Source of the DNA: Desulfocapsa sulfexigens DSM 10523 | Lineage (GTDB): Bacteria > Desulfobacterota > Desulfobulbia > Desulfobulbales > Desulfocapsaceae | Direction of reading: 5' to 3' | Assembly: GCF_000341395.1 (NCBI RefSeq) | Contig: NC_020304.1 | Span: 2,670,001-2,702,000, forward strand | Length of the DNA stretch: 32,000 nt | In this document: positions 1 through 30,449 of the stretch, piece by piece | Layout: the number at the start of each line of letters is the position of its first letter | How positions within the stretch are numbered: the stretch's first letter is position 1 | Position numbers and translations under genes: made by a program | Notes under the pieces: generated by a model | Database searches by the model: none | What the model saw: only the letters and a program-made list of their open reading frames with translations | What the model was told of the DNA's origin: nothing

Positions 1-1036
1 CAATCATGGCCCCAATAAAGAGGGCAGGGGCAAAAACTCCACCGGCTCCACCTGATCCAAGGGTTATGGATGTTGCAAAAATCTTCATAAAAATGAGAAT
101 AAAGAGAAGCAAAATAGCTCCCTCACCATTGAGGACTCTTTCTATGAAACTGTATCCATCTCCCATTATCTCGGGATAGGCCATCGCCATGCAGCCAATG
201 AGAAAGGCACCAGTTATTGGTTTCAGCTGCGGGTGTAGAGGCAATGCCTCGTATTTGTCTCTTACCCAGTAAAAGACACGGATATAGAAGACCGCAATCA
301 GTCCGATGATGATTGCCAGAAGAATGTAGAGTGGCAACTCCACGAAGGGGTTAACCATAACATAGTGTGGAATCGGGAAAGCGGGTATTTCACCGTAATA
401 TGCTCGTGTGACAACGGTAGAAAGAGCAGAAGCGATGACAAGAGCGGAAAAGGAGGAAATTTCAAAGGTGCCGAGGAGTACAATTTCCGAAGCAAAAAAT
501 ATACCGGCTATGGGGGCATTAAACATCCCTGCTATCCCACCTGCAGCGCCAGCTGCAATATATACTTTCATCCTGCTGCCGGATACTCTGAAAAACTGTC
601 CAACCTGAGATCCTGCTGCGCCACCAATCGCGGCGATTGGACCTTCAACACCGGCGGAATTCCCGGTACCGATGGTAAGGGCAGTGGTGATAATCTTGAG
701 TGCTATGGTTCTTGCCTTGATATATCCGCCCTCAAGATTGACTTTGCGGAGAAATTTCGTAAATCCGTAGCCGTTGACTTCTCCTGGAAAAAGAAGTGAA
801 AGGGGAATCAAAAGAACCATGCCGGCCATGGGAATGAGGGGGAGTAACAGGAGGTGCCAGCCGCCCTGGTCAATGTTGAGCAGATCTTTTCCGCCAACCA
901 TGAATATTTCATCCACCCAATGAACAATAGTCCGAAAAACGATATTGCAGAGACCGGCCAGAAGACCAATCACGGAGGCAATAATCATCATGCCGGTATT
1001 TTCGCCGGGCATGAACTTTCGGAGGTTATATTTCAT
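1..1036 (-). CDS. ClC-family chloride channel / H+-Cl- antiporter, N-terminal approx 345 codons; the 3' end runs off the left edge
   Basis: Absent from the ORF track because there is no stop in the window. My minus-strand translation from the ATG at 1036-1034 reads MKYNLRKFMPGENTGMMIIASVIGLLAGL...IGTGNSAGVEGPIAAIGG...GMFNAPIAGIFFASEI...LGSGGAGGVFAPALFIGAMI. These are the ClC selectivity-filter-type motifs (GxEGP, GxFxP) in the canonical order, within many hydrophobic helices. Confidence 0.85.
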   Translation of the reverse strand, partial: MKYNLRKFMPGENTGMMIIASVIGLLAGLCNIVFRTIVHWVDEIFMVGGKDLLNIDQGGWHLLLLPLIPMAGMVLLIPLSLLFPGEVNGYGFTKFLRKVNLEGGYIKARTIALKIITTALTIGTGNSAGVEGPIAAIGGAAGSQVGQFFRVSGSRMKVYIAAGAAGGIAGMFNAPIAGIFFASEIVLLGTFEISSFSALVIASALSTVVTRAYYGEIPAFPIPHYVMVNPFVELPLYILLAIIIGLIAVFYIRVFYWVRDKYEALPLHPQLKPITGAFLIGCMAMAYPEIMGDGYSFIERVLNGEGAILLLFILIFMKIFATSITLGSGGAGGVFAPALFIGAMI

Positions 1037-2283
1037 TGTTTTCTTGGTACCTTACAGCCGACGTTTGCAGCCTGTTTAAGGAAGAAATCATCTGTCATTC
1101 CTGCTATATAGTCACAAACCATGGCGGCAGGTGTGTGTGATTCAAGATAGGACGCATCCATGTCGGTCATGATATCTACGGGTTTTGTTGTCTGCCCGCT
1201 TTCCAGTTGCGTGAGATAGTGAGTAAAGAGTGCTTCGTAACAGTTTTGAATAAGGGGAAGATTTGTCTTGGTTTTGGGGTGAAGATAGATGTTTTTGTAA
1301 TTGAATGTTTTCAGTTCCTGGAGAAATTCGGAGATTTCCTGAGAAAACCCGATATGTCCATTTCTGCTGTCACCACTGGATGGAAGGACACTGTTACGGA
1401 TAAGGTCTGTGACCAGGGTATAAACGATTTCTCCGTTGGTACGGCCAAGTTGTGTGCGGCAGGATTCCGGGATATCTTCGCGTCGTATGAGCTTCAGTAG
1501 AATGGCGTCTTCGATGTCTCTTCCGATATAAGCCACGGTGTCAGCCATGCGGACGACACACCCTTCAAAGGTCATGGGAGCGAGTTTGTAACCTGGATTT
1601 TCTTTTTTCTTTTCAAGCTCCCTGTCAAACGAGGCAAAGTTTTTAACGGTGCCCGGGCTTATTCTGTTGGCGTGGACCTCACCATCATGACAGAGGATAC
1701 CGTCGAGGGTCTGCAGACTGAGATTCCAGCCCCGTCCTTTGCGTTCCAGGTGGTTCAAAAAACGAACCGACTGAATATTATGCTGAAAGGGGGGCAGGTC
1801 GTGTTTCCTGCAGAGATCTGCGAGAAAGTTTTCTCCGTCGTGTCCAAATGGGGCATGGCCTATGTCGTGGCCAAGGGCTATAGCTTCAATGAGATCTTCG
1901 TTAAGTTTAAGAAAGCGACCTATCGTTCTGGCAATTCGTGATACCAGCTGGACGTGGAGAACCCGATGAGTAATATGGTCATTGGAGACCATGCAAAATA
2001 CCTGGGTTTTGTCAATATAGCGGGTATAGGCCCGGGAGTGGATAATGCGATCCGCATCAAGGCTGAAGGCTTGTCGGTACCCGTTACGCTCTTCCTGTCT
2101 TCGACGTATAGCATCTGTTGAACGGGTAGCTGCCGGAGAGAGCCTCTCTTCTTCCATCCTGTTGAGGTGATCGAGCATTGGGAGGAGGCTGTTTTGTGGG
2201 CTGGGTGCCTGCATTATTCTACTGATAAAAGAGTGGGGTTCGGAGAATCTGTAAAAGTAAAAAAGGCCATTAGGCCAAGTCAA
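1033..2283 (-). CDS. dGTP triphosphohydrolase-like HD-domain phosphohydrolase
   Basis: A 416-aa ORF with DRIIHSRAYTRYIDKTQV, HVQLVSRIARTIG and ALGHDIGHAPFGHDGE, the HD signature of the dGTPase family. The true start is uncertain: TTG at 2283, or internal ATGs at 2214 or 2178, none with a clear SD. Its stop TGA (1035-1033) overlaps the ClC ATG (1036-1034) as ATGA. Confidence 0.85.
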   Translation of the reverse strand: MTWPNGLFYFYRFSEPHSFISRIMQAPSPQNSLLPMLDHLNRMEEERLSPAATRSTDAIRRRQEERNGYRQAFSLDADRIIHSRAYTRYIDKTQVFCMVSNDHITHRVLHVQLVSRIARTIGRFLKLNEDLIEAIALGHDIGHAPFGHDGENFLADLCRKHDLPPFQHNIQSVRFLNHLERKGRGWNLSLQTLDGILCHDGEVHANRISPGTVKNFASFDRELEKKKENPGYKLAPMTFEGCVVRMADTVAYIGRDIEDAILLKLIRREDIPESCRTQLGRTNGEIVYTLVTDLIRNSVLPSSGDSRNGHIGFSQEISEFLQELKTFNYKNIYLHPKTKTNLPLIQNCYEALFTHYLTQLESGQTTKPVDIMTDMDASYLESHTPAAMVCDYIAGMTDDFFLKQAANVGCKVPRKQ

Positions 2284-2350
2284 AAGAAAATATTATACCA
2301 GACTGAGTGGAAAAAGCACGTTTTGGAGCTGGGCTCCTGTGAAAAATGGT

Positions 2351-2377
2351 TTGTTTCCCAAACGTATGTGTTAGAAT
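2351..2377 (+). promoter_or_regulatory. candidate sigma70 promoter with an extended -10, upstream of the selenoprotein gene
   Basis: TGtTAGAAT at 2369-2377 fits the extended -10 pattern TGnTAnAAT. TTGTTT at 2351-2356 is a -35-like hexamer, but the spacer is short (15 nt). Sequence pattern only. Confidence 0.3.
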
Positions 2378-2425
2378 CCGTCAGATTATTTTTACTTGCT
2401 TACAAATAAGAACAGGAGAATTTGC

Positions 2426-2644
2426 GTGAAGGTTTCCATTGAATACTGCACGAAGTGAAACTATAAACCTCGTGCTTCCAGTCTGGGAGAAGAGTTGACT
2501 ACCCGGTTTAATGCAGACGTTGAGTTGATTGCATCGGATGGTGGTGTTTTTGAAGTTGTGGTTGATGGCAGGAAGATTTTTTCCAAAAAAGCGTTAAATC
2601 GTTTTCCTGAAGAAGGTGAGATTTTTAGCCAGATTCAAGCCTGA
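2426..2644 (+). CDS. selW: SelW/Rdx-family (SelW/SelT/SelH-like) selenoprotein, 72 codons, with in-frame UGA = Sec at 2456-2458
   Basis: AGGAG at 2414-2418 lies 7 nt before GTG 2426. The translation is VKVSIEYCTK-U-NYKPRASSLGEELTTRFNADVELIASDGGVFEVVVDGRKIFSKKALNRFPEEGEIFSQIQA, with stop TGA at 2642-2644. It has the CxxU redox motif (C-T-K-U) in the IEYC context, plus the GGxFEV...DG..IFSK...RFPE tail typical of Rdx-fold proteins. No Met follows the TGA, so the conserved part cannot be expressed without readthrough. Confidence 0.8.
2469..2494 (+). promoter_or_regulatory. bacterial SECIS-like stem-loop directing Sec insertion at UGA 2456
   Basis: Pairs 2469-2471/2492-2494 (CUC/GAG) and 2475-2479/2485-2489 (CUUCC/GGGAG, one G-U pair), with apical loop AGUCU at 2480-2484. 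The loop G and U lie 26-27 nt from the U of UGA. The CC-AGUCU-GG apex resembles the E. coli fdhF SECIS apex GC-AGGUCU-GC. Confidence 0.5.
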
Positions 2645-2662
2645 CAGGGAGTAATGCAAAGT

Positions 2663-3169
2663 TTACTCTTTGTTGGTTTGCAGGTTGCAGGAAGAGACGC
2701 ATTCGTTGCAATTGTTTCTGGTGGTCCCGCGTTTACAGTAATCTGCAAAGCCTTCAAGAAGGTCATCGCCACCTCGTGGGCAGACCTGTAAGAAGTTGAT
2801 AAAGGAAATCATTCGTTCGATGACTTCAGGAGGGGCAGCATGTTCTACTTTGCAGGCACCTTCTTCTGCAGTTTTCGGATCGATGGCAAGCACTTCAGTG
2901 AAGAAACGCTTTAAGGCATCATGACGAAAAATAACGTCTTCCGCTGTTTTTTTTCCGACAGTAGTGAGAGTGATTGGTTCGTAGGGTGCGTAATGAATTA
3001 ACTTTTTTTTGGAGAGAGTACGAAGGGCTTCTGTTACGGATGCCCTGCTGACACTCAGTCGGGTTGCAATATCCTTACTTCTGGCAACCTGTTTTTTGGT
3101 TATGATATGATATATTGCCTCTATGTAGTCTTCCAGGCTGGCACTGAGCGGAACCGTTTGAGTAGGCAT
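2663..3169 (-). CDS. DtxR/MntR-family metal-dependent transcriptional repressor with a Cys-rich C-terminal tail
   Basis: LEDYIEAIYHIITKKQVARSKDIATRLSVSRASVTEALRTLSKKKLI is the winged-HTH of DtxR/IdeR/MntR, followed by the dimerisation/metal domain (RHDALKRFFTEVL...). The ATG at 3169 (MPTQT...) is preferred; the ORF track starts at TTG 3175. The tail is C-x14-C-x8-C-x2-C-x3-C. Confidence 0.85.
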   Translation of the reverse strand: MPTQTVPLSASLEDYIEAIYHIITKKQVARSKDIATRLSVSRASVTEALRTLSKKKLIHYAPYEPITLTTVGKKTAEDVIFRHDALKRFFTEVLAIDPKTAEEGACKVEHAAPPEVIERMISFINFLQVCPRGGDDLLEGFADYCKRGTTRNNCNECVSSCNLQTNKE

Positions 3170-3448
3170 AATCAACGTATCTTTGAGATAGTATGAACGT
3201 ACTTAGGGTAGAGGAAGAGACACCCGATAGAATTCTTCTTAAAATACCCTTGTTTGCCAGTGTCGTCAAGTTTGTTGAAGTTGTAGTATTAGTAAACGGT
3301 CAGTAAGGCGGCCCAGATACATCCACGAATTGTTTTTATAAAGAGTCCTGATACGCGTCGACTGTGAAAGTAAGTCTAAGCTATTAAAAAGGCAGAGAGT
3401 GCCAAAATATTTTTTTTTCGGGCTGATCCCGGAATCCATTATTCTCAT

Positions 3449-5137
3449 ATGCTCTGTGAATTGAAAATTGATAATCTTGCTCTGATTGAAAGTCTTCATC
3501 TTGATCTTTGCTGCCAAAATGGAAATGGACTGGTTGTGATGACCGGTGAAACCGGAGCCGGAAAATCTATCATGCTCCGTGCCATTCACCTCCTTACTGG
3601 TGGCAGGGCATCTGCTGACTGGATTCGTAATGGGGCTGAATGCTGCACTGTGGAGGCACTTTTTGAGGTTTCTCAGAATAACCAGCTGTTGCAGGAAATA
3701 TTTGCCAAGCAGGGGATCGATGCTGAAGAAACCCTTGTTATGAAACGGGTGGTGACCAATAAGGGCAGGAGCCGGATGTATATTAATGGCTCTCCCGCCA
3801 CTACCAAAATGGCAGCGGAACTTGCCGTGAGCCTGCTGAATGTTGCCAGTCAACATGATCACCAGCAATTGCTGCAGCCCTGGTTTCATCTGGATTTTCT
3901 TGATACCATGGGAGAGACCTGGCCCCTGAGAAAACAGTTTGATCTACTTTTTGGGAGGTGGCAGGGAAAACGAGACGAACTGGAACAGCTTCAAAAACAG
4001 GAACAGGAAAAGGAACAGCGCAGGGATTTTCTTCAGTACCAGTTGGAGGAAATCAGGGCCATTGAGCCGATTCCAGGGGAAGACGAACTCCTCGCTGAAG
4101 AAAAGAAACGACTGAAAAGTGCCGATACTCTGATAAAGATCAGCAGAAAATCCCACGGTCTTATGGAGCAATCTCTGCTTGACGGCCTGATCCAGATTCG
4201 GATGGATATGAGTCAGGCTGCAGAACTTGATGGCGACGCGAAGGAACTGGCAACTGAGCTTGCAGAGTTCAGTTATCATGCTGAAGATCTGGTGTTGAAA
4301 CTGCGGGAATACAGAGATTCCCTGAACAATGATCCCTACCGGCTTGACACTGTAAATGAGCGCCTCAATGAGCTTCAGGGCTTGAAGCGAAAATACGGAG
4401 ACAGCCTCGAAGCTGTAATCGCTTTTGCCGAAGATGCTGAGGCACAGTTGCAGCAGATAGAAAACCTCGAAAAGGTTGTGAGTGGATGTGAGGCCGAGGT
4501 ACTGGCACTTGAAAGCGAACTCTGCCTTTTTGCTGGAAAGCTCAGTGAAAAAAGAAAAAAGACAGCGGTAACATTGGAACAATCCATGGGGAAAGAGCTT
4601 GAATCCCTTGCCTTTAACCAATCGGGGCTCGAGGTTCGTTTTCAGGAACATGGGGAGAATGTGGCGGCACTGCGGCAGGGGGGCTGGGATAAGGTGGAAT
4701 TCTTTTTCTCCGCAAATCCCGGTGAGCCGGTGAGACCTCTTGTGAAAGTGGCTTCCGGTGGTGAACTTTCTCGTCTGATGCTTGCCTTTAAATGTCTCCT
4801 TGCCAGGAAGGATATGGTGGAGACAGTGATTTTTGATGAGGTGGACGCCGGAATCGGGGGAGAGGCTGCAGAGGCGGTGGCTAGAAAAATTCAGGAACTT
4901 TCCACTCACCATCAGGTTTTCTGTATAACCCATCTGCCACAGATTGCAGCCCGGGGGAATACCCATTTTCTCGTGGAAAAAGGTGTGGAGGACGGACGAA
5001 CCCAGTCAGGAATATATATGCTTACGCCGGAGCAGCGCCTCAATGAAGTGAGCAGAATGCTGGCAGGGGAGTCTGTGTCTGATCAAACACGTGCCTGGGC
5101 TGAAGAACTGCTGGCAAAGGGAAGGGGCGCTGCGTGA
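3449..5137 (+). CDS. recN: DNA repair protein RecN (SMC-like ATPase)
   Basis: 562 aa. It has the N-terminus MLCELKIDNLALIESL, Walker A GETGAGKS, a long coiled-coil middle, the signature ASGGELSRLMLA and Walker B VIFDEVDAGIGG. Confidence 0.95.
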   Translation: MLCELKIDNLALIESLHLDLCCQNGNGLVVMTGETGAGKSIMLRAIHLLTGGRASADWIRNGAECCTVEALFEVSQNNQLLQEIFAKQGIDAEETLVMKRVVTNKGRSRMYINGSPATTKMAAELAVSLLNVASQHDHQQLLQPWFHLDFLDTMGETWPLRKQFDLLFGRWQGKRDELEQLQKQEQEKEQRRDFLQYQLEEIRAIEPIPGEDELLAEEKKRLKSADTLIKISRKSHGLMEQSLLDGLIQIRMDMSQAAELDGDAKELATELAEFSYHAEDLVLKLREYRDSLNNDPYRLDTVNERLNELQGLKRKYGDSLEAVIAFAEDAEAQLQQIENLEKVVSGCEAEVLALESELCLFAGKLSEKRKKTAVTLEQSMGKELESLAFNQSGLEVRFQEHGENVAALRQGGWDKVEFFFSANPGEPVRPLVKVASGGELSRLMLAFKCLLARKDMVETVIFDEVDAGIGGEAAEAVARKIQELSTHHQVFCITHLPQIAARGNTHFLVEKGVEDGRTQSGIYMLTPEQRLNEVSRMLAGESVSDQTRAWAEELLAKGRGAA

Positions 5138-6183
5138 AACAGATAACTGCACTTGCCCTTTTCTCCGGTGGCTTGGATTCCATCCTTGCCGCGAAGCTGG
5201 TGGCATCCCTTGGTGTACGTGTCCTGGCGGTAAAATTTGTGACCCCGTTTTTCGATTATGAACTGCTCGATGATCCAGAAAAATACAAACAGAAGATTAT
5301 GGATAAATATGGAATAGAAGTGGTTCTCCATGATCTCAGTCATAATTATCTTGATCTGCTGCATAATCCATCGCACGGATTTGGCAAAAATTTTAATCCC
5401 TGTATTGATTGCAAAATTCTCATGTGTCGTCGGGCAAGGGAAATGATGCCTGAATATGGAGCGTCTTTTCTTGTCAGTGGCGAAGTGCTTGGGCAACGTC
5501 CCATGTCTCAGCGTCGTGATACTTTGCGGGTTATTGAACGTGATTCAGAGAATGACGGCCTCTTGCTGCGACCGCTTTCTGCAAAACTCATGACCCCGAC
5601 AACGGCTGAAACTGAAGGGTGGATTGATCGTGAAAAGCTCCTTAACTTCAGTGGTCGCGGACGATCGAGACAGATACAGCTTGCAAAGGAATATGGTATA
5701 ACGGATTTTCCCGCACCTGCTGGTGGCTGTATGCTGGCTGATCCTATCCTCAGTACACGAATAGAGAAGATCTACAATGGTGATTTTGTAATAAAGGCGG
5801 AGGAGATAACTGTTACTGATGTTCGTTTTTTGTTAGTCGGACGCCAGTTTCTTCTTCCGGATGGCTTTTGGGTAATCCTTGGCCGCAATGAAAAAGAAAA
5901 TATCAAAATTGAGAATCTGGCTGAAGATACTGACGTGTTGGTTCATATGCCTGACAGACCAGGCCCCACTGCTCTGCTTCGGAATTCCAATAACCGCTTG
6001 TTAACCAGTGGCAATAAAGACGAGATTATTGCCAGGGCTGCAGGCCTGGTTGTGCGATACGGAAAAACAGTGGAAGAGGATCCCGGAGCGGCATTAGAAA
6101 TTCAAGGCTTAGGGACAACATACAGGATAACAGGGCACCCGATTTCTGAACAATTGTGCAGGGATTGGATGATACAAAGTTAA
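5134..6183 (+). CDS. PP-loop ATP pyrophosphatase, ThiI/tRNA-sulfurtransferase-like, without a THUMP domain
   Basis: It has the SGGLDS PP-loop near the N-terminus, NPCIDCK, and SGEVLGQRPMSQRRDTL...LLRPLSA, which resembles the ThiI adenylation domain. GTG 5134 overlaps the recN stop as GTGA. Confidence 0.6.
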   Translation: MKQITALALFSGGLDSILAAKLVASLGVRVLAVKFVTPFFDYELLDDPEKYKQKIMDKYGIEVVLHDLSHNYLDLLHNPSHGFGKNFNPCIDCKILMCRRAREMMPEYGASFLVSGEVLGQRPMSQRRDTLRVIERDSENDGLLLRPLSAKLMTPTTAETEGWIDREKLLNFSGRGRSRQIQLAKEYGITDFPAPAGGCMLADPILSTRIEKIYNGDFVIKAEEITVTDVRFLLVGRQFLLPDGFWVILGRNEKENIKIENLAEDTDVLVHMPDRPGPTALLRNSNNRLLTSGNKDEIIARAAGLVVRYGKTVEEDPGAALEIQGLGTTYRITGHPISEQLCRDWMIQS

Positions 6184-6281: not shown

Positions 6282-7367
6282 ATGAAGACAGCCTTTATTA
6301 CAGGGGTAACTGGGCAGGATGGCGCGTACCTTGCTGAATTTTTATTGGGGAAAGGCTACGATGTCCACGGTCTGAAACGAAGGGCATCATCTTTTAATAC
6401 TGACAGGGTTGATCATCTCTATCAGGATCCTCATGAAGAAGATGTACGGTTTACTCTTCACTATGGTGATCTCACTGATTCCACCAATCTGATTCGTATT
6501 ATTCAGGAAATCCAACCGGATGAGATTTATAATCTTGCTGCTCAGAGTCATGTGGCAGTCTCTTTTGAGACTCCTGAGTATACAGCGAATTCTGATGCAT
6601 TGGGTACACTCCGGGTCCTGGAGGCCATTCGTATTCTCGGGCTGGAAGGAAAAACAAAATTTTATCAGGCTTCGACTTCTGAGTTGTTTGGAAAGGTTCA
6701 GGAAACCCCGCAGACTGAAAAAACACCCTTTTATCCAAGATCTCCTTATGCCTGCGCGAAATTATATTCCTACTGGATCTGTGTGAATTATCGGGAAGCA
6801 TATAACATGTATGCCTGCAATGGCATTCTCTTTAATCACGAATCACCTGTCAGAGGAGAAACCTTTGTTACCCGTAAGATCACTCGTGCTCTGGCGCGAA
6901 TAAAACTAGGTCTCCAGAAAGATATGTATCTGGGCAATCTGAGTGCCAAACGCGATTGGGGACATGCTAAAGACTATGTAAAAATGCAGTGGTTGATGCT
7001 GCAGCAGGAAACGCCTGAAGATTTTGTTATTGCTACAGGGGTGCAGCATTCAGTTCGTGAGTTTGTTCAGATTGCGGCAGAACAACTGGACATGCAGATT
7101 GAGTGGCGGGGTGAGGGGCTTCAGGAAATTGGTGTCGAAAAGAATAGTGGAAAAACCATTGTTCATGTTGATTCCCGTTATTTCCGTCCAACGGAGGTTG
7201 AAACTCTACTTGGTAATCCTGCAAAGGCTAAAGAAAAATTGGGGTGGGTTCCTGAGATTACCTTTGAGCAACTGGTACAGGAAATGGTTGTTGCAGATCT
7301 GAAACTTGCTGAACGTGATCAGATTGTGAGTAAGAAGGGATACAAAGCGTATAATTATTTTGAGTAG
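6282..7367 (+). CDS. gmd: GDP-mannose 4,6-dehydratase
   Basis: 361 aa, with [17 protein letters not shown], the YxxxK region [12 protein letters not shown], and [17 protein letters not shown], all typical of Gmd. GAGGA lies 9 nt upstream of the ATG. Confidence 0.95.
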
Positions 7368-7371
7368 GCTT

Positions 7372-8313
7372 ATGGATTCTCACTCATCTATTTACGTAGC
7401 CGGACACCGTGGCCTGGTTGGAGCAGCAATTTGCCGATCTCTTACCAAGGCGGGATATACGAACATTCTCACTCAATCACATGCTGAACTTGAGTTGACA
7501 AATCAAGCAGCAGTGCAGGAATATTTTGCTGATGTACAGCCTGAATATGTCTTTCTGTCTGCTGCAAAAGTAGGCGGTATTCACGCGAACGATACCTTTC
7601 CTGCAGATTTTATCCGCGATAATTTGTTGATACAGACAAATGTTATTGACGCTGCGTATCAAAACAAAGCCAAAAAACTTCTATTTCTCGGATCCTCCTG
7701 TATTTATCCCAGGCTTTGTCCTCAACCGATGAAAGAGGAATATCTGTTAACAGGTCCTCTTGAAATCACCAATGAGTGGTATGCCATTGCGAAAATAGCA
7801 GGAATTAAAATGTGCCAGGCGTATCGAAAGCAATATGGATTCAACGCGATTAGTCTTATGCCGACAAATCTGTACGGTCCTGGGGATAATTTTGATCTGG
7901 AAAATTCTCATGTGTTACCGGCGCTCATGCTTAAATGTCACAATGCAAAGAAAAACGGTGATGCTCAAATGACAGTATGGGGCACCGGAAAGGCTTTAAG
8001 GGAATTTCTGCATGTGGATGACCTTGCTGATGCCAGTGTGTTTCTTATGGAATCCTGTGACGATTCGGAACCGGTTAATATTGGAAGCGGTCGAGAAATT
8101 TCCATAGGTGATTTGGCTCATCTTGTGGCCAATGTTGTCGGGTTTAAGGGAGAAATTGTTTTTAATACAGAAATGCCTGATGGAACTCCTCGAAAGCTGC
8201 TTGACAGCAGCAAGCTTAATACTCTCGGTTGGCATTCTCATATTACCTTGGAACAGGGTCTTATTCAAACCTATCAATGGTTTTTAGAAAATCAGGAAAT
8301 AATAAGATCATAA
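7372..8313 (+). CDS. fcl: GDP-L-fucose synthase (GDP-4-keto-6-deoxy-D-mannose 3,5-epimerase/4-reductase)
   Basis: IYVAGHRGLVGAAI, AAKVGGIHAN, FLGSSCIYP, YAIAKIAG, and its position directly after gmd. The ATG at 7372 is preferred over the track's TTG at 7360. Confidence 0.92.
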   Translation: MDSHSSIYVAGHRGLVGAAICRSLTKAGYTNILTQSHAELELTNQAAVQEYFADVQPEYVFLSAAKVGGIHANDTFPADFIRDNLLIQTNVIDAAYQNKAKKLLFLGSSCIYPRLCPQPMKEEYLLTGPLEITNEWYAIAKIAGIKMCQAYRKQYGFNAISLMPTNLYGPGDNFDLENSHVLPALMLKCHNAKKNGDAQMTVWGTGKALREFLHVDDLADASVFLMESCDDSEPVNIGSGREISIGDLAHLVANVVGFKGEIVFNTEMPDGTPRKLLDSSKLNTLGWHSHITLEQGLIQTYQWFLENQEIIRS

Positions 8314-8383: not shown

Positions 8384-9973
8384 ATGGATACTCTTGCGTC
8401 AAATATTGCTGTTGTTGGGTCAGGTTACTGGGGTAAAAATTTAGTACGTAATTTTAATACCCTTGAAGCGCTGCATACCATTTGTGATACAAACAAAACG
8501 ACCCTGACACGTTTTGAAGAGCAGTACCCTGGTATAAATACAGCGACTGCATACAGCCAGATTTTGACGAATCCTGAGATACAGGGGGTTGCTATCGCAA
8601 CTCCTGCAGAGACTCATGCCACCCTTGCAACGGAAGCACTACTGGCTGGAAAAGATGTTTATATAGAAAAACCGCTCTGTCTCTCTGAAAAGGAAGGTGC
8701 TGAATTAAATGCACTTGCCAAAAGACAGAACTGTGTACTTATGGTCGGACATTTACTCTGGTACCATCCGGTTGTTCTCAAACTTAAAGAACTTGTCGAT
8801 GCCGGGGAACTTGGTCGTATCCAGTATATATATTCAAATCGATTGAATCTTGGGAAACTGCGTAGAGAGGAAAATGTACTCTGGTCATTTGCTCCCCATG
8901 ATATTTCTGTCATCCTGGGGCTGACCGGGGAAATGCCTGAATCCATCCGTGCTCAGGGTGGGAATTATCTCCACCGACAAATTGCTGACACCACTATGAC
9001 GTTGATGAATTTCTCAAGTGGCATCAAGGCTCATATCTTCGTCTCCTGGCTTCATCCTTTTAAGGAACAGAAGCTTGTTGTTGTTGGTGAAAAGCAGATG
9101 GCTGTTTTTGATGATGTTGCGCCATGGGATGACAAATTGCTGCTGTATCCACACTCTATAAAGTGGAGTGATAACATCCCCGTTGCCAATAAGGCAGAGG
9201 CTGTCAAAGTTACGGTTAAACAGGATGAACCCCTTAAGGCAGAATGTGCTCATTTTCTGGATTGTATAAAAAACAGAAGCAAACCACGCACAGACGGTGA
9301 GGAAGGGTTAAGAGTTTTAAAGGTACTTAATCGGTGTCAGGAGTCCCTGGAAAATGAACAAAAAGTCCAGGTAACCAGCCACAGTAATCAGGCGGATTTC
9401 TTTTGCCATGAGAGTGCTGTCGTCGATTCCGGTGTGGATATCGGTTCAAATTCTAAAATATGGCATTTCAGTCATATCCTCTCTGGTTCAAAGATCGGTT
9501 GTAGCTGCAATATTGGTCAGAATGTTGTGGTAGGGCCTAACGTGACCATCGGGGACAGATGTAAAATCCAGAACAATGTCTCTGTGTATGAAGGCGTGAG
9601 CATTGGAGATGAGGTTTTTTGTGGTCCCAGTATGGTATTTACAAATGTGATGAATCCCCGTGCTGCAATCTCCAGGAAGGATGAGTATTGTGACACTGTT
9701 GTTCGAAGGGGGGTGACTTTTGGGGCGAATTGTACCATTGTCGGCGGTATTGAGATTGCTGAATATGCCTTTATTGGTGCCGGAGCAGTTGTGGTGAAGA
9801 GTGTTCCCGCTTTTGCCCTGATGGTTGGTAATCCTGCACGACAGATTGGCTGGATGAGTAAATATGGAAAAAAAATGGACTTACCACTTACTGGTCACGC
9901 TGATTTTACATGTCCTTTTACCGGGGAAAAATACACTCTGCGGGATGATTGTGTTACGGTGGTGCCGGAATAG
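8384..9973 (+). CDS. fusion protein: Gfo/Idh/MocA sugar-nucleotide oxidoreductase (N-terminal, approx 330 aa) plus left-handed beta-helix N-acetyltransferase (C-terminal), WbpB-WbpD / WlbA-WlbB-like
   Basis: The N-terminus has the IAVVGSGYWGKNLVRNF Rossmann motif and EKPL. The C-terminus has hexapeptide repeats IWHFSHILSGSKIGCSCNIGQNVVVGPNVTIGDRCKIQNNVSVYEGVSIGDEVFCGPSMVFTNVMNPR, closely like 3-amino-sugar N-acetyltransferases of the WlbB/WbpD type. Confidence 0.8.
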   Translation: MDTLASNIAVVGSGYWGKNLVRNFNTLEALHTICDTNKTTLTRFEEQYPGINTATAYSQILTNPEIQGVAIATPAETHATLATEALLAGKDVYIEKPLCLSEKEGAELNALAKRQNCVLMVGHLLWYHPVVLKLKELVDAGELGRIQYIYSNRLNLGKLRREENVLWSFAPHDISVILGLTGEMPESIRAQGGNYLHRQIADTTMTLMNFSSGIKAHIFVSWLHPFKEQKLVVVGEKQMAVFDDVAPWDDKLLLYPHSIKWSDNIPVANKAEAVKVTVKQDEPLKAECAHFLDCIKNRSKPRTDGEEGLRVLKVLNRCQESLENEQKVQVTSHSNQADFFCHESAVVDSGVDIGSNSKIWHFSHILSGSKIGCSCNIGQNVVVGPNVTIGDRCKIQNNVSVYEGVSIGDEVFCGPSMVFTNVMNPRAAISRKDEYCDTVVRRGVTFGANCTIVGGIEIAEYAFIGAGAVVVKSVPAFALMVGNPARQIGWMSKYGKKMDLPLTGHADFTCPFTGEKYTLRDDCVTVVPE

Positions 9974-10062: not shown

Positions 10063-10863
10063 ATGGGTACAATCAGTCTTTTTTTGAAATCAATAATCAA
10101 ACAACGGCGTCTCATACTCTCAATGGCCAAACGGGAGGTGAAGTCGCAGTATGTTGGTTCCACTCTTGGACTGGTGTGGACTTTTATTCATCCTCTGGTA
10201 TTGATTTTTGTCTTCTGGGTTGTTTTCAGCGTGGGATTTAAGGCTGTTCCTGCCAGTAATGTCCCTTTTGTTGTCTGGCTGACAGCGGGGATGACATGCT
10301 GGTTTGCATTTTCTGATATGATATCAGGATCAACCAATATTGTTGTCGGAAATAGTAATTTAATCAAAAAAACAGTTTTTCCTGCCCAGATACTTCCCGT
10401 TGTTAAAATAACCTCTTCCCTTGTTGCCCATAGTATTTTTGTTCTTATCCTGATGGGACTGATACTTTTACAAAGGTTGCCTTTCAGTATCTTTTATTTT
10501 CAATCACTCTATTATCTGTTCTGTATGCTGGTACTGGTGCTCGGACTTTCCTGGTTATTTTCGTCATTGAATGTCTTTGTTCGGGATATCAACCAGGCCG
10601 TTGCCCTTGCCCTGCAGGTTGGGTTCTGGGGCACTCCTATCTTCTGGGATATTAATATTATGCCGCAGAAGATACAGTCCGTGCTCAAACTGAATCCGAT
10701 GTTTTATATTGTTCAGGGGTATAGGGATTCTTTCCTTAATTTTATACCTTTTTGGGATCATCCTATTTTAACGCTTTATTTCTGGGTGGTTGCTTTGTCT
10801 ATCTTTATACTTGGGGCTGTTGTGTTTCGTCGTTTACAGCCGCAGTTTTCAGATGTCCTGTGA
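10063..10863 (+). CDS. wzm: ABC-2 type polysaccharide export permease (Wzm/TagG/KpsM-like)
   Basis: 266 aa with about 6 hydrophobic helices. The N-terminal RRLILSMAKREVKSQYVGSTLGLVWTFIHPL motif is typical of ABC-2 permeases. It lies directly upstream of the matching ATPase. Confidence 0.85.
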   Translation: MGTISLFLKSIIKQRRLILSMAKREVKSQYVGSTLGLVWTFIHPLVLIFVFWVVFSVGFKAVPASNVPFVVWLTAGMTCWFAFSDMISGSTNIVVGNSNLIKKTVFPAQILPVVKITSSLVAHSIFVLILMGLILLQRLPFSIFYFQSLYYLFCMLVLVLGLSWLFSSLNVFVRDINQAVALALQVGFWGTPIFWDINIMPQKIQSVLKLNPMFYIVQGYRDSFLNFIPFWDHPILTLYFWVVALSIFILGAVVFRRLQPQFSDVL

Positions 10864-10869
10864 AAGCTT

Positions 10870-12159
10870 ATGAATAGAGAAATTTCAATTGATGCCCATG
10901 AACTGACGAAGACCTATTATCTGTATGACCGGCCTATTGATCGTGTAAAGGAGACCTTTCATCCCTGGCGTAAGATTTATCATCGTCCTTTTGATGCCGT
11001 TAAAGGGTTGAGTTTTACTATTCACAAGGGTGAGTCGTTTGGTATAATTGGTCGCAATGGCAGTGGAAAATCCACATTGTTGCAGATGATATGCGGAATT
11101 CTTCAGCCCACAAGCGGTTACGTAACTGTTAATGGCAGGGTTGCTGCTTTACTGGAATTAGGAGCAGGATTTAATCCTGAGTTTTCGGGACGTGAAAATG
11201 TTTATTTAAATGGCGCCATTTTAGGGTTTTCCACAGCAGAAATTGACGATCTCTATGATGAAATTGTTGGTTTTGCTGATATAGGAGATTTTGTTGACCA
11301 GCCCGTGAAAACCTATTCCAGCGGAATGTATGTCCGTTTGGCCTTTGCTGTGCAGGCATGCGTTGAGCCGGAGATTCTTGTTGTCGACGAAGCCCTGAGT
11401 GTGGGGGATGTTTTCTTTCAGCAAAAATGCCTTGGCAGGATGCGACAGCTCAGGGAGAACGGTACCACACTGCTTTTTGTCTCCCATGACATGGGCATTG
11501 TCCGTGAGCTTTGTGAAAGTTCCGTTTATCTGCATAAGGGGCGGCTTGCGTACTGTGGGCCCAGCCATAAGGCAGTGCAGAAGTATTATAATATGGATCA
11601 CCGTCAGGTCTCTGGTTCTTCAGGAAGTGAAAATGGTGGCGCACCTGTCGCCTCTTCACTCACGGGGAATGAAATATGGAAACAGGACATATCTCAATCT
11701 CAGGATGGTGCTGATGCGGAAATACTTTCAGTGAGCATGGAGGATAAAGATGGCTTTCCATCCATGAAGGCAACCATTGGTGAACAGATCTCATTTACAT
11801 TGTACTATCGGGTAAATAAAAGTGGCCCTATTCATGCTTCGGTTTCTATTAAAAACAGGTTTGACAACCTGATCAGCTGTAACGGAACCTATATCAACAA
11901 TCTTGAACCACAGACTTTAGCCGAAGGAGCTGTAGGGAAAATTGTTTTTAAAGTTCAATGTGACATGGAGGCTGGCCCTTATACTCTCCATTTTAGCTTG
12001 TCTTCCCCAGGGGATCGCCCTAACAGGGCCGCAACAGTTGATGAAACCCCATGGCTTGGTCCTCTTTCCATAGAGTGGGATTATGAGAATCATAAGGCTC
12101 CTTTTCTGGGGATGTTCAACCTGCCTGTTTTCTGCTCATTTGGCGAGGATACGAAGTAA
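10870..12159 (+). CDS. wzt: polysaccharide ABC exporter ATP-binding protein with a C-terminal beta-sandwich (Wzt_C-like) domain
   Basis: Walker A GRNGSGKST, signature YSSGMYVRLAFA, Walker B LVVDEALSVGD and H-loop SHD. An additional approx 180-aa C-terminal extension (EILSVSMEDKDG...YTLHFSLSS) resembles the glycan-cap-binding domain of Wzt proteins. Confidence 0.88.
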   Translation: MNREISIDAHELTKTYYLYDRPIDRVKETFHPWRKIYHRPFDAVKGLSFTIHKGESFGIIGRNGSGKSTLLQMICGILQPTSGYVTVNGRVAALLELGAGFNPEFSGRENVYLNGAILGFSTAEIDDLYDEIVGFADIGDFVDQPVKTYSSGMYVRLAFAVQACVEPEILVVDEALSVGDVFFQQKCLGRMRQLRENGTTLLFVSHDMGIVRELCESSVYLHKGRLAYCGPSHKAVQKYYNMDHRQVSGSSGSENGGAPVASSLTGNEIWKQDISQSQDGADAEILSVSMEDKDGFPSMKATIGEQISFTLYYRVNKSGPIHASVSIKNRFDNLISCNGTYINNLEPQTLAEGAVGKIVFKVQCDMEAGPYTLHFSLSSPGDRPNRAATVDETPWLGPLSIEWDYENHKAPFLGMFNLPVFCSFGEDTK

Positions 12160-18541: not shown

Positions 18542-19591
18542 ATGCAACGGAATGATTTTTTAGATTTTTTGAAGGGGAGCCTGATAACATTGGTCTGTAT
18601 TGGTCATGCTAACCAGTATGTTGTCCACCAAGACCGTGACTTTTTTCAAGATCCGTTATTCAAGGCGATATATATGTTTCACATGCCTTTGTTTATGGCA
18701 GTTGCCGGTTATCTTTCCCACCGTGGAATCACGGAGGAAAAAGGCCGATTTTTCTATATTATACGGAGGGCATCCAGTTATTTGCTCCCCATATTTGCTT
18801 GGACGATAATTGAACACAGTTCACGCTATTTTGTGTTTAGCCAACCTGTAAATTTTGATATTATTTTTGGTTATACTGGGTTGGACAGACTTTGGTTTCT
18901 TTGGGCACTTATCGAATCCGTTGTGGTGACAGTATTTGCTACACTGTTTGGTAAATATAGACCCATTATGCTCCTGGTATCTTTTGTGGCGATTCTTGCC
19001 ATACCTGACACATCTCATTTTTATCTGTTGAAGTATGTCTTTCCATTTTTTCTGTTTGGTTTCTATTTGGCCGGGAGTAATCTTAAACGAATTGTGATAA
19101 CCAACATTCAATGGCTGGTGTTACTGTCAGCAGTTGCAAGTCTACTTTGTTTTTTTATATGGGATCAGCATACCTATATATACATTTCTAAAATGTCACT
19201 TACATCTGAGAATATCCCTAATATTGTGTTTCGCTGGGTGGCCGGGGGAGTTGCTTCTCTGTTTTTTGTCTCCTTTCTCTATCTTTCCAATTCTTTTATT
19301 TCAGTAATGGTAAAAAAAATAATCATACTTGCTGGACGAGACTCCATCTATATCTATATTCTTCAGACGTATATATTTCTTTTTCTCTTTGCCCTGGTTT
19401 CGCGGGTTATTCAACCAATCTCTAACATCTTTATTGGGGGCTCATTGTCAATAATTACTGGATGTGTGGTGACTCTATGTAGTTTGTGGATTGGAAATAT
19501 CATCGCTCAGAACAGACATCTTGATCGTGTGCTGTTCGGTAAACTCCGACCCAGAAATTCGACCACTACACAAATAAAACAGCTTAATTAA
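18542..19591 (+). CDS. acyltransferase family 3 integral membrane O-acyltransferase
   Basis: 349 aa with about 10 hydrophobic helices. It has the N-terminal FLDFLKGSLITLVCIGHA motif and FHMPLFMAVAGY, typical of the Acyl_transf_3 family. Confidence 0.75.
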   Translation: MQRNDFLDFLKGSLITLVCIGHANQYVVHQDRDFFQDPLFKAIYMFHMPLFMAVAGYLSHRGITEEKGRFFYIIRRASSYLLPIFAWTIIEHSSRYFVFSQPVNFDIIFGYTGLDRLWFLWALIESVVVTVFATLFGKYRPIMLLVSFVAILAIPDTSHFYLLKYVFPFFLFGFYLAGSNLKRIVITNIQWLVLLSAVASLLCFFIWDQHTYIYISKMSLTSENIPNIVFRWVAGGVASLFFVSFLYLSNSFISVMVKKIIILAGRDSIYIYILQTYIFLFLFALVSRVIQPISNIFIGGSLSIITGCVVTLCSLWIGNIIAQNRHLDRVLFGKLRPRNSTTTQIKQLN

Positions 19592-20832: not shown

Positions 20833-21933
20833 TTGAAAATAATTACCGTTGTGGGGGCGCGACCTCAATTTATTAAAGCAGCTGCAGTAAGCCGGGCAAT
20901 CATTGAGCACAATCAAAACAACCGTTTTGCAATACAGGAAAATATTCTTCATACTGGTCAGCATTATGACGAGAAGATGTCATCTGTCTTCTTTGACCAG
21001 TTAGAAATTCCAAAACCAAAGTACAATCTTGGAATAACTGAAAAGACCCACGGAGCTATGACAGGGAAGATGCTTGAACAGATTGAAACTGTACTAATGA
21101 AAGAAGCTCCGGATATCCTTCTCGTTTATGGTGATACTAATTCTACCTTGGCCGGGGCTCTTGCCGCATCGAAGTTACATATTCCTGTTGCCCATGTTGA
21201 GGCAGGGTTACGTTCTTTTAATAGGGCTATGCCGGAAGAAGTGAACAGGGTTCTTACCGATCATATCTCTGATTTCCTGTTTTGCCCTACTCAGACAGCC
21301 GTCAGCAATCTCCACAATGAAGGTGTTGTTGAACACATACACAACGTTGGTGACGTGATGTATGATGTCACTCTGATGTATCGAGAGAAAGCCGAAAAGC
21401 AATACACTTTAAGTAACTGGGGAGTTGGTGAAAAAGGATATGTTTTATGTACTGTTCATCGTGCTGAAAATACTGATGATAAAAAGCGATTGCAGGATGT
21501 TTTTCTGGCTTTGAACGAGATGGCTCATGATATTCCAGTTATATTGCCACTGCACCCCAGAACTCATAAGATGTTATGTGAATATGGGCTTGAGCATTTG
21601 CTTAAAAAACTGCAGGTGATAGAACCGCTATCTTACCTGGAAATGACCCGTCTGGAGATGTCAGCAAAAGCGATTGTTACTGACTCTGGTGGCATACAGA
21701 AAGAGGCGTATTTCCATAGAGTTCCCTGTCTGACATTACGTGATGAGACTGAATGGATTGAAACCGTTGCCATGGGATGTAATTTTCTCTGTGGAGCAGA
21801 GAGAAAAACAATTCTTGCAGGTTGGGCTTCCATTGCGAACAGTGATAATGTTTTTGCAACTGTGGATGAGCAAGGTGAATTGCCGTACGGTAACGGTTTT
21901 GCGTCCAGATTGATCGTAGAGAAGTTGTTATAG
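20833..21933 (+). CDS. wecB: UDP-N-acetylglucosamine 2-epimerase, non-hydrolysing type (WecB/WbpI-like)
   Basis: MKIITVVGARPQFIKAAAV, LVYGDTNSTLAGALAA, HVEAGLRSFN, and TDSGGIQKEAYF. The start is TTG 20833, preceded by GAAGGTGA (20821-20828). Confidence 0.85.
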   Translation: MKIITVVGARPQFIKAAAVSRAIIEHNQNNRFAIQENILHTGQHYDEKMSSVFFDQLEIPKPKYNLGITEKTHGAMTGKMLEQIETVLMKEAPDILLVYGDTNSTLAGALAASKLHIPVAHVEAGLRSFNRAMPEEVNRVLTDHISDFLFCPTQTAVSNLHNEGVVEHIHNVGDVMYDVTLMYREKAEKQYTLSNWGVGEKGYVLCTVHRAENTDDKKRLQDVFLALNEMAHDIPVILPLHPRTHKMLCEYGLEHLLKKLQVIEPLSYLEMTRLEMSAKAIVTDSGGIQKEAYFHRVPCLTLRDETEWIETVAMGCNFLCGAERKTILAGWASIANSDNVFATVDEQGELPYGNGFASRLIVEKLL

Positions 21934-22019: not shown

Positions 22020-24187
<2,168 letters not shown>

Positions 24188-24410
24188 CTTTTAGTAAAAC
24201 CAGGCAGCATTTCACCTCCCTGATACTATCCTTAAATCCACGCAATTATATTGTACACTGTTACGATGGAGAGACAAGCGTAAAACTATTTTAATAAGCA
24301 CTGTCGCCGTTATATGATCAGGGGAGCCCCAATTGTAGGTGGCTTGGCGATGATGCCTTTGAGCCATTAGGGGAATTGATGATTGTATTTTGCAGAGTGT
24401 TGAGGAAAAA

Positions 24411-26203: not shown

Positions 26204-26230
26204 GAATAATTTTAGGAAAAATCAGTGCAG

Positions 26231-30331: not shown

Positions 30332-30449
30332 CGCTGTGTAAAATGTAATTTATTGACTTGTTTCAACTACGCTTTCTTTTATTCTTCCCTCCCCCTTTCC
30401 AATGAACAAAAAAAACTACCTTTTCTATTCGCAAGTGAATGGCTGAATA

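What the first reader, a model, noticed from the sequence alone, without database searches (positions are those of the whole stretch)
2426..2644. Unannotated SelW/Rdx-type selenoprotein gene with in-frame UGA
An SD (AGGAG) plus GTG opens a frame that reads ...IEYCTK, then TGA, and continues for 61 more codons with a clear Rdx-fold C-terminal signature (GGVFEVVVDGRKIFSK...RFPEEGEI). The TGA sits exactly at the second redox position of the CxxC/CxxU motif. Standard gene callers, and the supplied ORF track, miss it. It implies a selABCD Sec-insertion system in the host.
Basis: partly seen in the sequence, partly recalled or inferred. Interest (0 to 1): 0.6.

Follow-up and report, generated by a model that had tools for sequence, protein, structure and literature searches.

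The report
SelW-like selenoprotein gene, truncated by annotators
This is a real 72-codon gene for a small SelW-like (Rdx family) redox protein whose in-frame UGA encodes selenocysteine, but it belongs to a bacterial selenoprotein family described about twenty years ago, so it is ordinary.

Summary
AGGAG lies at 2414-2418, the GTG start at 2426, Cys8 at 2447-2449, the in-frame TGA at 2456-2458, and 61 further codons run to the stop at 2642-2644.

With U replaced by C, the 72-aa product matches Pfam Rdx end to end (E=1.5e-21). It scores above the curated cut-off of the NCBIfam equivalog 'SelT/SelW/SelH family (seleno)protein'.

All 80 orthologous loci fetched from Desulfobulbales genomes carry TGA at the same codon. 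Their ten upstream codons are under protein-coding constraint.

A 6-bp hairpin with an invariant loop G sits 16 nt after the UGA (2475-2489). It is paired in 99.6% of cells and covaries at synonymous sites (C-G 38, U-A 30, U-G 6), as a bacterial SECIS would.

Pseudogene, 49-aa fragment and TGA=Trp readings are rejected. Gene callers either skip the gene or call only the last 49 codons. Many database copies translate the TGA as Trp.

No sel genes or tRNA-Sec lie in the window, so the host's Sec machinery is inferred, not shown.

Bacterial CxxU SelW-like selenoproteins are already published, including one in Desulfotalea psychrophila of the same order.

The parts
2414..2418 (+). Shine-Dalgarno-like AGGAG, 7 nt upstream of the start codon
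   Evidence: Read directly from the sequence.
2426..2644 (+). Complete SelW-like / Rdx-family selenoprotein gene: 72 codons including UGA-Sec at codon 11, plus the stop codon
   Evidence: Translation. Pfam PF10262 E=1.5e-21 over the full profile. NCBIfam NF041051 at 104.2 bits against a cut-off of 88, and TIGR02174 at 65.4 bits. The start position is shared by orthologues, 65 with ATG and 10 with GTG.
2447..2449 (+). TGC, Cys8, first residue of the CxxU redox motif
   Evidence: Invariant Cys in 75 of 75 distinct orthologues. It aligns with the first Cys of CTQC in PDB 2fa8.
2456..2458 (+). In-frame TGA read as selenocysteine (U11)
   Evidence: TGA at this codon in 80 of 80 related genome loci. 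It aligns with the second Cys of CxxC in Cys homologues. TGA is otherwise an ordinary stop in this window, ending 8 of 22 genes.
2475..2489 (+). Putative bacterial SECIS hairpin: 5' arm CUUCCA 2475-2480, loop GUC 2481-2483 with invariant G2481, 3' arm UGGGAG 2484-2489. It starts 16 nt after the UGA.
   Evidence: RNAalifold consensus on 75 sequences. 99.6% of cells are paired against 37-68% when partners are slid. Pair 21:33 is C-G 38, U-A 30, U-G 6, and 0 of 500 shuffles reach the observed values. Third positions of codons 18 and 20 are almost frozen, and G at loop position 26 is invariant while the encoded residue varies S/G/R.
2495..2644 (+). The 49-aa TTG ORF that gene callers report instead of the full gene (an annotation artefact, not a separate gene)
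   Evidence: ORF list. P0018 (JGI) is 100% identical to this fragment. A further 57 truncated relatives of 40-89 aa are in the database.

Best explanation
Window 2426-2644 (+) is an intact, expressed-type gene for a 72-residue SelW-like (Rdx family) protein with a thioredoxin-like fold and a Cys8-Thr-Lys-Sec11 motif.

Shown here:
- the reading frame
- family membership
- conservation of the TGA and of both flanks across the order Desulfobulbales
- a conserved, covarying hairpin 16 nt downstream of the UGA

Inferred from the established bacterial Sec pathway: during translation the hairpin acts as a bacterial SECIS and recruits SelB·GTP·Sec-tRNA(Sec) to the ribosome. UGA-11 is then decoded as selenocysteine rather than as a stop.

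Inferred from the family: the protein works as a small redox protein. Cys8 and Sec11 lie at the junction of strand 1 and helix 1 and cycle between a selenolate/thiol form and a selenenylsulfide, reducing an unknown, probably thiol- or glutathione-linked, substrate.

The host is an uncultured Desulfocapsa-like sulfur-cycling deltaproteobacterium. The gene sits in an order-wide conserved neighbourhood: HD phosphohydrolase (-), SelW-like (+), DtxR-family regulator (-), RecN (+), ThiI-like (+).
For: - **Frame and motif:**
- **Family HMMs:** Pfam Rdx E=1.5e-21 over the full-length profile, against 5.7e-10 for the post-TGA ORF alone. NCBIfam equivalog NF041051 'SelT/SelW/SelH family (seleno)protein' scores 104.2 bits against a cut-off of 88, and TIGR02174 scores 65.4 against 34.2.
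- **Solved relatives by sequence:** 2fa8 at E=2.7e-10, with YCTQCNW aligned to YCTK(U)NY. 3dex, 2obk, 2oka, 2ojl and 2p0g also match, as does mouse SelW 2npb at E=0.008.
- **Fold:** the AlphaFold model of the Cys homologue P0079 (pLDDT 81) has the order strand, helix, then three strands, with CxxC between strand 1 and helix 1. It superposes on those entries at TM about 0.76 and rmsd about 1.6 A.
- **Conservation of the TGA:** 261 relatives were found in genome contigs and the best 80 kept, essentially all labelled as Desulfobulbales-type taxa. All 80 have TGA at the same codon.
- **Coding constraint upstream:** codons 2-10 have third-position entropy of 0.8-1.9 bits, above that of positions 1 and 2 (at most 0.8 bits, except first positions of codons 4 and 9, 1.24 and 1.48).
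- **Hairpin:** 99.6% paired, synonymous-site covariation, 0 of 500 shuffles as good, slid controls at 37-68%.
- **Database 'W' is TGA:** the 58 full-length database relatives that show 'W' at this position are TGA in the DNA where checked.
- **Standard genetic code:** TGA ends 8 of 22 other genes in the window.
- **Synteny:** kept in 62-70 of 80 loci.
- **Literature:** CxxU SelW-like selenoproteins are described in bacteria (PMC1088965). Desulfotalea psychrophila is listed with SelW-like, SelD and ten other selenoproteins (PMC1794560).
Against: - No selA, selB, selD or tRNA-Sec is present in the 32-kb window or in the extra 6.5 kb of the matching contig. The host's decoding machinery is therefore not demonstrated.
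- The hairpin is short, at 6 bp. In the window sequence alone, folding is no more stable than in shuffles (MFE -9.6 kcal/mol, z=+0.45).
- A possible lower stem is not conserved (48.9% paired).
- No Rfam family matched at gathering score.
- Part of the hairpin's conservation could reflect the conserved peptide RASSLG, although frozen synonymous positions and the 21:33 covariation argue otherwise.
- The biochemical function of bacterial SelW-like proteins is unknown, so the redox mechanism is inferred from the family.
Confidence: 0.93

Rival explanations
1. Pseudogene: a Cys-type Rdx gene in which TGC/TGT mutated to TGA, so the locus is dead or decaying.
For: A single in-frame stop in a short gene is what a fresh nonsense mutation looks like. 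Cys-type homologues exist (P0079, TGT).
Against: TGA is present at the identical codon in 80 of 80 orthologous loci spanning 61-80% protein identity. Both flanks are under purifying selection, and there are no frameshifts or additional stops. A covarying hairpin is maintained just downstream.
Confidence: 0.01
2. The real gene is only the 49-aa ORF from TTG 2495, as JGI called it, or similar 45-67-aa calls. The upstream similarity would then be untranslated.
For: This is what gene callers output (P0018 and 57 other truncated entries, some named 'Rdx family protein' or 'selenoprotein W-related protein'). The fragment alone still passes the Pfam threshold (39.7 bits).
Against: - The fragment lacks strand 1, the CxxC/U motif and half of helix 1 of the fold.
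- The internal start differs from locus to locus (TTG, ATG and GTG at different codons).
- The MK[IV]SIEYC start, with ATG or GTG and a Shine-Dalgarno sequence, is conserved.
- Codons 2-10 show a coding pattern of substitution.
Confidence: 0.03
3. TGA is decoded as a standard amino acid, with Trp or Gly under an alternative genetic code. This is what the 58 database translations with 'W' at this position imply.
For: 58 full-length database proteins carry W at the position.
Against: The 'W' entries come from short contigs (longest contig per cluster 502-3,498 bp), and the DNA codon is TGA. This fits a gene caller switching to translation table 4. In the window, TGA terminates 8 of 22 long genes and this gene itself. 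The position aligns with the catalytic Cys of CxxC, not with Trp, in solved homologues. Desulfobulbales are not known to use a recoded TGA (own knowledge).
Confidence: 0.01

Closest known systems
Bacterial SelW-like selenoproteins (Rdx family; Pfam PF10262, NCBIfam TIGR02174 and NF041051), as catalogued by Kryukov, Zhang and Gladyshev, including the SelW-like selenoprotein of Desulfotalea psychrophila
   Same: About 70-aa single-domain protein with a CxxU motif near the N-terminus, UGA followed by a small hairpin with a G in the apical loop, and few Cys homologues among close relatives. It occurs in anaerobic deltaproteobacteria. One of the 80 orthologous loci is from a Desulfotalea sp. MAG (L045).
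   Different: Nothing essential. This is another orthologue, from an uncultured Desulfocapsa-like genome. The order-wide synteny and the synonymous-site covariation of the hairpin were worked out here. I did not find them in the passages of the two cited papers that I read.
Cys-type bacterial SelW-related proteins with solved structures (2fa8 Atu0228, 3dex SAV_2001, 2obk, 2oka, 2ojl, 2p0g)
   Same: Same fold and motif position. Sequence E-values run from 2.7e-10 to 3.2e-07. Model superposition gives TM about 0.76 and rmsd about 1.6 A.
   Different: Those proteins have CxxC rather than CxxU. They are about 100 aa long with a C-terminal extension that the 72-aa protein lacks. None has an assigned biochemical function.
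Mammalian selenoprotein W (mouse SelW, PDB 2npb)
   Same: Rdx fold with a CxxU motif, the Sec in the same position.
   Different: Only a distant match (E=0.008; TM 0.62). Eukaryotic Sec insertion uses a 3'-UTR SECIS with SBP2 and eEFSec, not a hairpin in the coding region bound by SelB (established knowledge).
E. coli fdhF SECIS, the paradigm bacterial SECIS
   Same: A hairpin in the coding sequence directly 3' of the UGA, with a G (here G-U) in the apical loop. It is presumed to bind SelB.
   Different: Here only a 6-bp helix with a 3-nt loop (or 5 bp with a 5-nt loop) is conserved, starting 16 nt after the UGA. No conserved lower stem or bulged U was seen. SelB binding is not tested.

Membership tests
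Rdx / SelT-SelW-SelH family (Pfam PF10262; NCBIfam TIGR02174, NF041051) | Profile HMM score above the curated family cut-off over the whole domain | tested here: met
   PF10262 scores 76.8 bits against 22.6, covering profile positions 1-73 of 74. NF041051 scores 104.2 against 88, and TIGR02174 scores 65.4 against 34.2. Sec was entered as Cys.
Rdx / SelT-SelW-SelH family (Pfam PF10262; NCBIfam TIGR02174, NF041051) | CxxC or CxxU motif immediately after the first beta strand | tested here: met
   C8-T-K-U11. It aligns with CTQC of 2fa8 and 3dex. In the model of the Cys homologue the motif lies between strand 2-8 and helix 14-28.
Rdx / SelT-SelW-SelH family (Pfam PF10262; NCBIfam TIGR02174, NF041051) | Thioredoxin-like fold: strand, helix, then three strands | tested here: met
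pLDDT is 81. The top PDB matches are all SelW-related proteins at TM about 0.76. For the window protein itself this is inferred.
Bacterial selenoprotein gene (SelB/SECIS-dependent UGA decoding) | In-frame UGA aligned with Cys in homologues, with protein-level conservation on both sides | tested here: met
   TGA in 80 of 80 loci. Cys is at that position in P0079 and in the PDB homologues. Third-position-dominated variation is seen upstream and downstream.
Bacterial selenoprotein gene (SelB/SECIS-dependent UGA decoding) | Stem-loop immediately 3' of the UGA with a conserved G in a small apical loop (the consensus range of roughly 16-37 nt between UGA and the loop is recalled from Zhang and Gladyshev 2005, own knowledge) | tested here: met
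   Helix at columns 20-25 with 29-34, loop G26-N-N, G26 invariant, 22 nt between the UGA and the loop. 99.6% paired with covariation at pairs 21:33 and 22:32. Caveat: the helix is short and is not thermodynamically exceptional in a single sequence.
Bacterial selenoprotein gene (SelB/SECIS-dependent UGA decoding) | selA, selB, selC (tRNA-Sec) and selD present in the same genome | not testable with these tools
   None is in the window or the extra flank. The literature lists SelD and 11 other selenoproteins in the related Desulfotalea psychrophila (PMC1794560).
Bacterial selenoprotein gene (SelB/SECIS-dependent UGA decoding) | Selenium actually incorporated at the UGA position | not testable with these tools
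   This needs 75Se labelling or mass spectrometry.

The most novel reading that the evidence does not exclude
The SelW-like gene has been locked into one neighbourhood across the whole order Desulfobulbales. It is divergent from an HD-domain dGTPase-like phosphohydrolase, convergent with a DtxR/MntR-type metal-dependent repressor and next to recN. In the extended contig, Fe/Mn superoxide dismutase and Mg/Co transporters lie a few kb upstream.

The most novel reading not excluded is that this reflects a functional module. The CxxU protein would serve a metal- or oxidative-stress or DNA-damage response under the neighbouring repressor. That would give the first concrete physiological handle on bacterial SelW-like proteins, whose function is still unknown.
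Probability: 0.1. Interest if true: 0.35.

Novelty: already known. Interest (0 to 1): 0.12.

Why it matters
The value is mainly for annotation quality. This gene is either skipped or cut to its last 49 codons by standard callers. In the protein database searched, of the 118 relatives returned, 58 were truncated fragments and 58 were mistranslated with Trp at the Sec position. Only one genuine Cys form was found.

Correcting such calls matters for selenoproteome censuses and for inferring the selenium dependence of sulfur-cycling Desulfobulbales. It also marks the host as very probably Sec-decoding.

It does not change what is known about selenoproteins. The family, its CxxU motif, its SECIS type and its presence in this bacterial order are already published.

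Tried and rejected
- **Rfam scan of the whole window at gathering thresholds:** no hit, so no curated SECIS or other RNA family supports the hairpin.
- **Single-sequence folding of UGA+60 nt:** the MFE is not better than shuffles (z=+0.45). The hairpin claim therefore rests on comparative data only.
- **Extended lower stem (columns 14-16 with 37-39) suggested by the window's own fold:** rejected, only 48.9% paired across orthologues.
- **tRNA-Sec search:** none in the window. In 41 loci, comprising 40 related loci and the extended contig, only a syntenic tRNA-Arg turned up.
- **sel genes in the window:** Pfam scans of 25 long ORFs found none.
- **Promoter and terminator consensus scan of 2150-3350:** nothing assignable to this gene.
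- **Structure prediction of the window protein with U replaced by C:** I used the natural Cys homologue P0079 instead.
- **My first regular expression for parsing orthologues was too strict and was corrected.** The five loci it still missed were read by hand, and all have TGA.
- **Pseudogene, 49-aa gene and TGA=Trp readings:** rejected, as set out under the rival explanations.

Full report
**1. What is in the sequence**

On the + strand an AGGAG lies at 2414-2418, 7 nt before a GTG at 2426. The frame reads (M)KVSIEYCTK, then TGA at 2456-2458. It continues for 61 sense codons, NYKPRASSLGEELTTRFNADVELIASDGGVFEVVVDGRKIFSKKALNRFPEEGEIFSQIQA, to a second TGA at 2642-2644. The mechanical ORF list shows only the 49-aa TTG ORF 2495-2644.

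**2. Family assignment**

With the UGA entered as Cys, the 72-aa product matches Pfam Rdx (PF10262). Residues 2-71 align to profile positions 1-73 of 74, at E=1.5e-21 and 76.8 bits. The post-TGA ORF alone gives 39.7 bits, so the region upstream of the internal start contributes about half the score.

NCBIfam gives 104.2 bits to the equivalog NF041051 'SelT/SelW/SelH family (seleno)protein' (cut-off 88). It gives 65.4 bits to TIGR02174 'CXXU_selWTH'.

By sequence, the nearest solved structures are bacterial SelW-related proteins:
- 2fa8 at E=2.7e-10, with YCTQCNW aligned to YCTK-U-NY
- 3dex, 2obk, 2oka, 2ojl and 2p0g
- mouse SelW 2npb, more distantly, at E=0.008

I modelled the natural Cys homologue P0079 instead, using an alignment of full-length relatives. 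The model has pLDDT 81. Its order is strand 2-8, helix 14-28, then three strands, with the CxxC between strand 1 and helix 1. Foldseek returns the same SelW-related entries at TM about 0.76 and rmsd about 1.6 A, then mouse SelW, then glutaredoxins and thioredoxins.

**3. Is the TGA a selenocysteine codon?**

A search of the protein database returned 118 relatives. They fall into four groups:
- 58 are full length and show 'W' at the Sec position.
- One has Cys (P0079).
- One has Arg (P0035).
- 58 are 40-89-aa fragments that begin after the TGA. Several are named 'Rdx family protein', 'selenoprotein W-related protein' or 'selT/selW/selH-like putative selenoprotein'.

The 'W' is an artefact of translation. 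The contig encoding P0002 has TGA at that codon. The Cys form has a real TGT.

A scan of one genome per species found 261 relatives. Nearly all of the best 80 are labelled as Desulfobulbales-type taxa. They include Desulfocapsa, Desulfopila, Desulforhopalus, Desulfosediminicola, Desulfotalea and Desulfofustis, among them cultured strains. The best match, an uncultured Desulfocapsa, is 80% identical. All 80 carry TGA at the identical codon: 75 were parsed automatically and five read by hand.

The start codon is at the same aligned position in all 75 distinct sequences, ATG in 65 and GTG in 10. Codons 2-10 vary mainly at third positions. Third-position entropy is 0.8-1.9 bits, above that of positions 1 and 2 in every codon (at most 0.8 bits, apart from the first positions of codons 4 and 9). 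This is the signature of translated sequence.

TGA is an ordinary stop for 8 of 22 long genes in the window, and for this gene itself. A recoded genetic code is therefore excluded.

**4. The recoding signal**

I aligned UGA+63 nt from the window and 74 distinct orthologues. The alignment is ungapped. RNAalifold predicts one helix, columns 20-25 with 29-34. In the window this is CUUCCA 2475-2480, loop GUC 2481-2483 and UGGGAG 2484-2489.

Counting pairs gives the following:
- 99.6% of cells form standard pairs, against 37-68% when the 3' arm is slid by 1-3 columns.
- Pair 21:33 is C-G in 38 sequences, U-A in 30, U-G in 6 and unpaired in 1.
- Pair 22:32 is U-G in 48, U-A in 25 and G-C in 1.
- None of 500 shuffles reaches the observed pairing or covariation score.

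Columns 21 and 33 are both third codon positions. Column 21 is Ala GCU or GCC. Column 33 ends the Gly or Glu codon (GGA, GGG, GAA or GAG). The covariation is therefore not imposed by the protein.

Other signs point the same way:
- The third positions of codon 18 (UCC) and codon 20 (YUG) are almost invariant, at 0.18 and 0.00 bits. Elsewhere third positions show 1-1.9 bits.
- The loop G (column 26) is invariant, although the residue it helps to encode varies among Ser, Gly and Arg.

[quoted passage not shown] The consensus spacing is recalled from my own knowledge.

There are caveats:
- The helix is short.
- The window sequence alone folds no better than shuffles (z=+0.45).
- A lower stem suggested by the single-sequence fold is not conserved.
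- Rfam has no match.

**5. Context**

The neighbourhood is conserved across the order:
- HD-domain phosphohydrolase, 1033-2283, minus strand
- SelW-like gene, plus strand
- DtxR-family metal-dependent repressor, 2663-3175, minus strand
- RecN, 3449-5137, plus strand
- ThiI-like protein, 5134-6183, plus strand

These neighbours are found next to the gene in 62-70 of the 80 loci. The gene is thus vertically inherited and orthologous across the order.

A Logan contig whose RecN product is identical to the window's extends 6.5 kb further left. It carries a CLC channel, tRNA-Arg, MgtE, a diadenylate cyclase, Fe/Mn SOD and CorA. Its gene calls leave the interval holding the SelW-like gene empty.

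The rest of the window, 6282-32000, is a polysaccharide and nonulosonic-acid biosynthesis cluster.

No selA, selB, selD or tRNA-Sec is present anywhere in the sequence available. The existence of the host's Sec machinery is therefore inferred. It rests on the long-term maintenance of TGA plus hairpin, and on the literature for Desulfotalea psychrophila. That member of the same order is listed with 12 selenoproteins, including SelW-like and SelD (PMC1794560).

**6. Mechanism**

The following is shown:
- an intact frame
- family and fold membership
- conservation of the TGA
- a covarying hairpin

Inferred from the established E. coli pathway summarised in PMC1794560: the hairpin binds SelB·GTP·Sec-tRNA(Sec) and directs Sec insertion at UGA-11.

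Inferred from the family: Cys8 and Sec11 form a reversible selenenylsulfide in a thioredoxin-like redox protein. The physiological substrate is unknown for all bacterial members. PMC1088965 likewise says that the function is unclear, that the CxxU motif suggests a redox role, and that the protein interacts with glutathione.

**7. Rival explanations**

- A pseudogene is excluded by the 80-of-80 conservation of the TGA and the clean frames.
- A stand-alone 49-aa gene would lack strand 1 and the redox motif. Its start codon is not conserved among relatives.
- TGA=Trp is excluded by stop-codon usage and by alignment of the position to a catalytic Cys.

**8. Comparison with what is known, and verdict**

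Bacterial SelW-like CxxU selenoproteins were already listed among known selenoprotein families in a 2005 survey. They were the most abundant selenoprotein family in the Sargasso Sea data, with 48 genes (PMC1088965). They were noted for having few Cys homologues, and were listed for Desulfotalea psychrophila and Geobacter sulfurreducens (PMC1794560). NCBI maintains an equivalog model named for the (seleno)protein.

The window's gene meets every sequence-testable criterion of that family. It differs in nothing essential.

The finding is a routine annotation repair, not a discovery. Novelty is 'already known' and interest is 0.12.

The only mildly new observations concern this orthologue group in Desulfobulbales: a minimal 6-bp SECIS supported by covariation, the fixed synteny, and the scale of database mis-annotation.

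Noticed in passing
Protein database hits P0001-P0118; locus L081 543-767: The family is systematically mis-annotated. Of 118 relatives, 58 are translated with Trp at the Sec position, and the DNA is TGA where checked. These sit on short contigs, apparently called with translation table 4. Another 58 are truncated to 40-89 aa starting after the TGA. Only one is a genuine Cys form.
   Followed up: partly
L082 847-1053 (Cys homologue P0079, TGT codon): The one Cys-type close relative still has a hairpin-like sequence at the SECIS position (GCAGCCAGUUUGGCGGC). Five of six pairs are intact and pair 21:33 is broken. It looks like a remnant SECIS after a Sec-to-Cys conversion, as described for other families in PMC1794560.
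   Followed up: no
window 6282-32000 (+): A long co-directional polysaccharide or O-antigen type cluster. It holds:
- GDP-mannose 4,6-dehydratase and an epimerase/reductase (6282-8313)
- a GFO/hexapeptide fusion (8384-9973)
- ABC-2 Wzm/Wzt transporter genes (10063-12159)
- several glycosyltransferases
- a 991-aa PMT_2-domain protein (13270-16245)
- an acyltransferase-3 gene (18542-19591)
- UDP-GlcNAc 2-epimerase (20833-21933)
- PseB-like dehydratase and DegT aminotransferase (22026-24187)
- a cytidylyltransferase (24390-25121)
- a sulfotransferase (26225-27196)
- an ATP-grasp protein (28081-29292)
- NeuB (29279-30331)

G+C falls from about 0.47 at the left of the window to 0.34-0.38 at 26-32 kb. 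This suggests a horizontally acquired or hypervariable surface-glycan island.
   Followed up: partly
window 25087-26121 and 27198-28148 (+): Two ORFs of 344 and 316 aa inside the glycan cluster have no Pfam match at E<=0.001.
   Followed up: no
window ~30446-32000 (+): An open frame of at least 518 codons runs off the right end of the window. Its N-terminus...EIDGLRSVAVFPVILFHAG..., resembles acyltransferase-3/OafA-type proteins. That resemblance is from memory only and was not scanned.
   Followed up: no
window 1-1012 (-); L083 5807-7564: The left end of the window is the 5' part of a CLC chloride-channel/CBS gene that runs off the window. This is seen as a 343-codon open frame and as the gene called on the extended contig.
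   Followed up: partly
L083 5557-5633 and the equivalent place in most related loci: A tRNA-Arg(TCG) gene lies about 1.5-9 kb upstream of the SelW-like gene in 35 of the 41 loci scanned. In 33 of them it is on the minus strand only. It lies just outside the window.
   Followed up: no
window 2663-3175 (-): The mechanical ORF for the DtxR-family repressor starts at TTG 3175 (MIMPTQ...). The gene called on the matching contig is 168 aa, which implies the ATG at 3169. Its stop is only 18 nt from the stop of the convergent SelW-like gene, and no terminator-like site lies between them.
   Followed up: no
window 5134-6183 (+): This ThiI-like PP-loop protein has a C-terminal NFACT-R_2 RNA-binding domain. 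Its start overlaps the recN stop by 4 nt, and it is syntenic with recN in 65 of 80 loci. It is probably a tRNA-modifying enzyme co-transcribed with recN.
   Followed up: no
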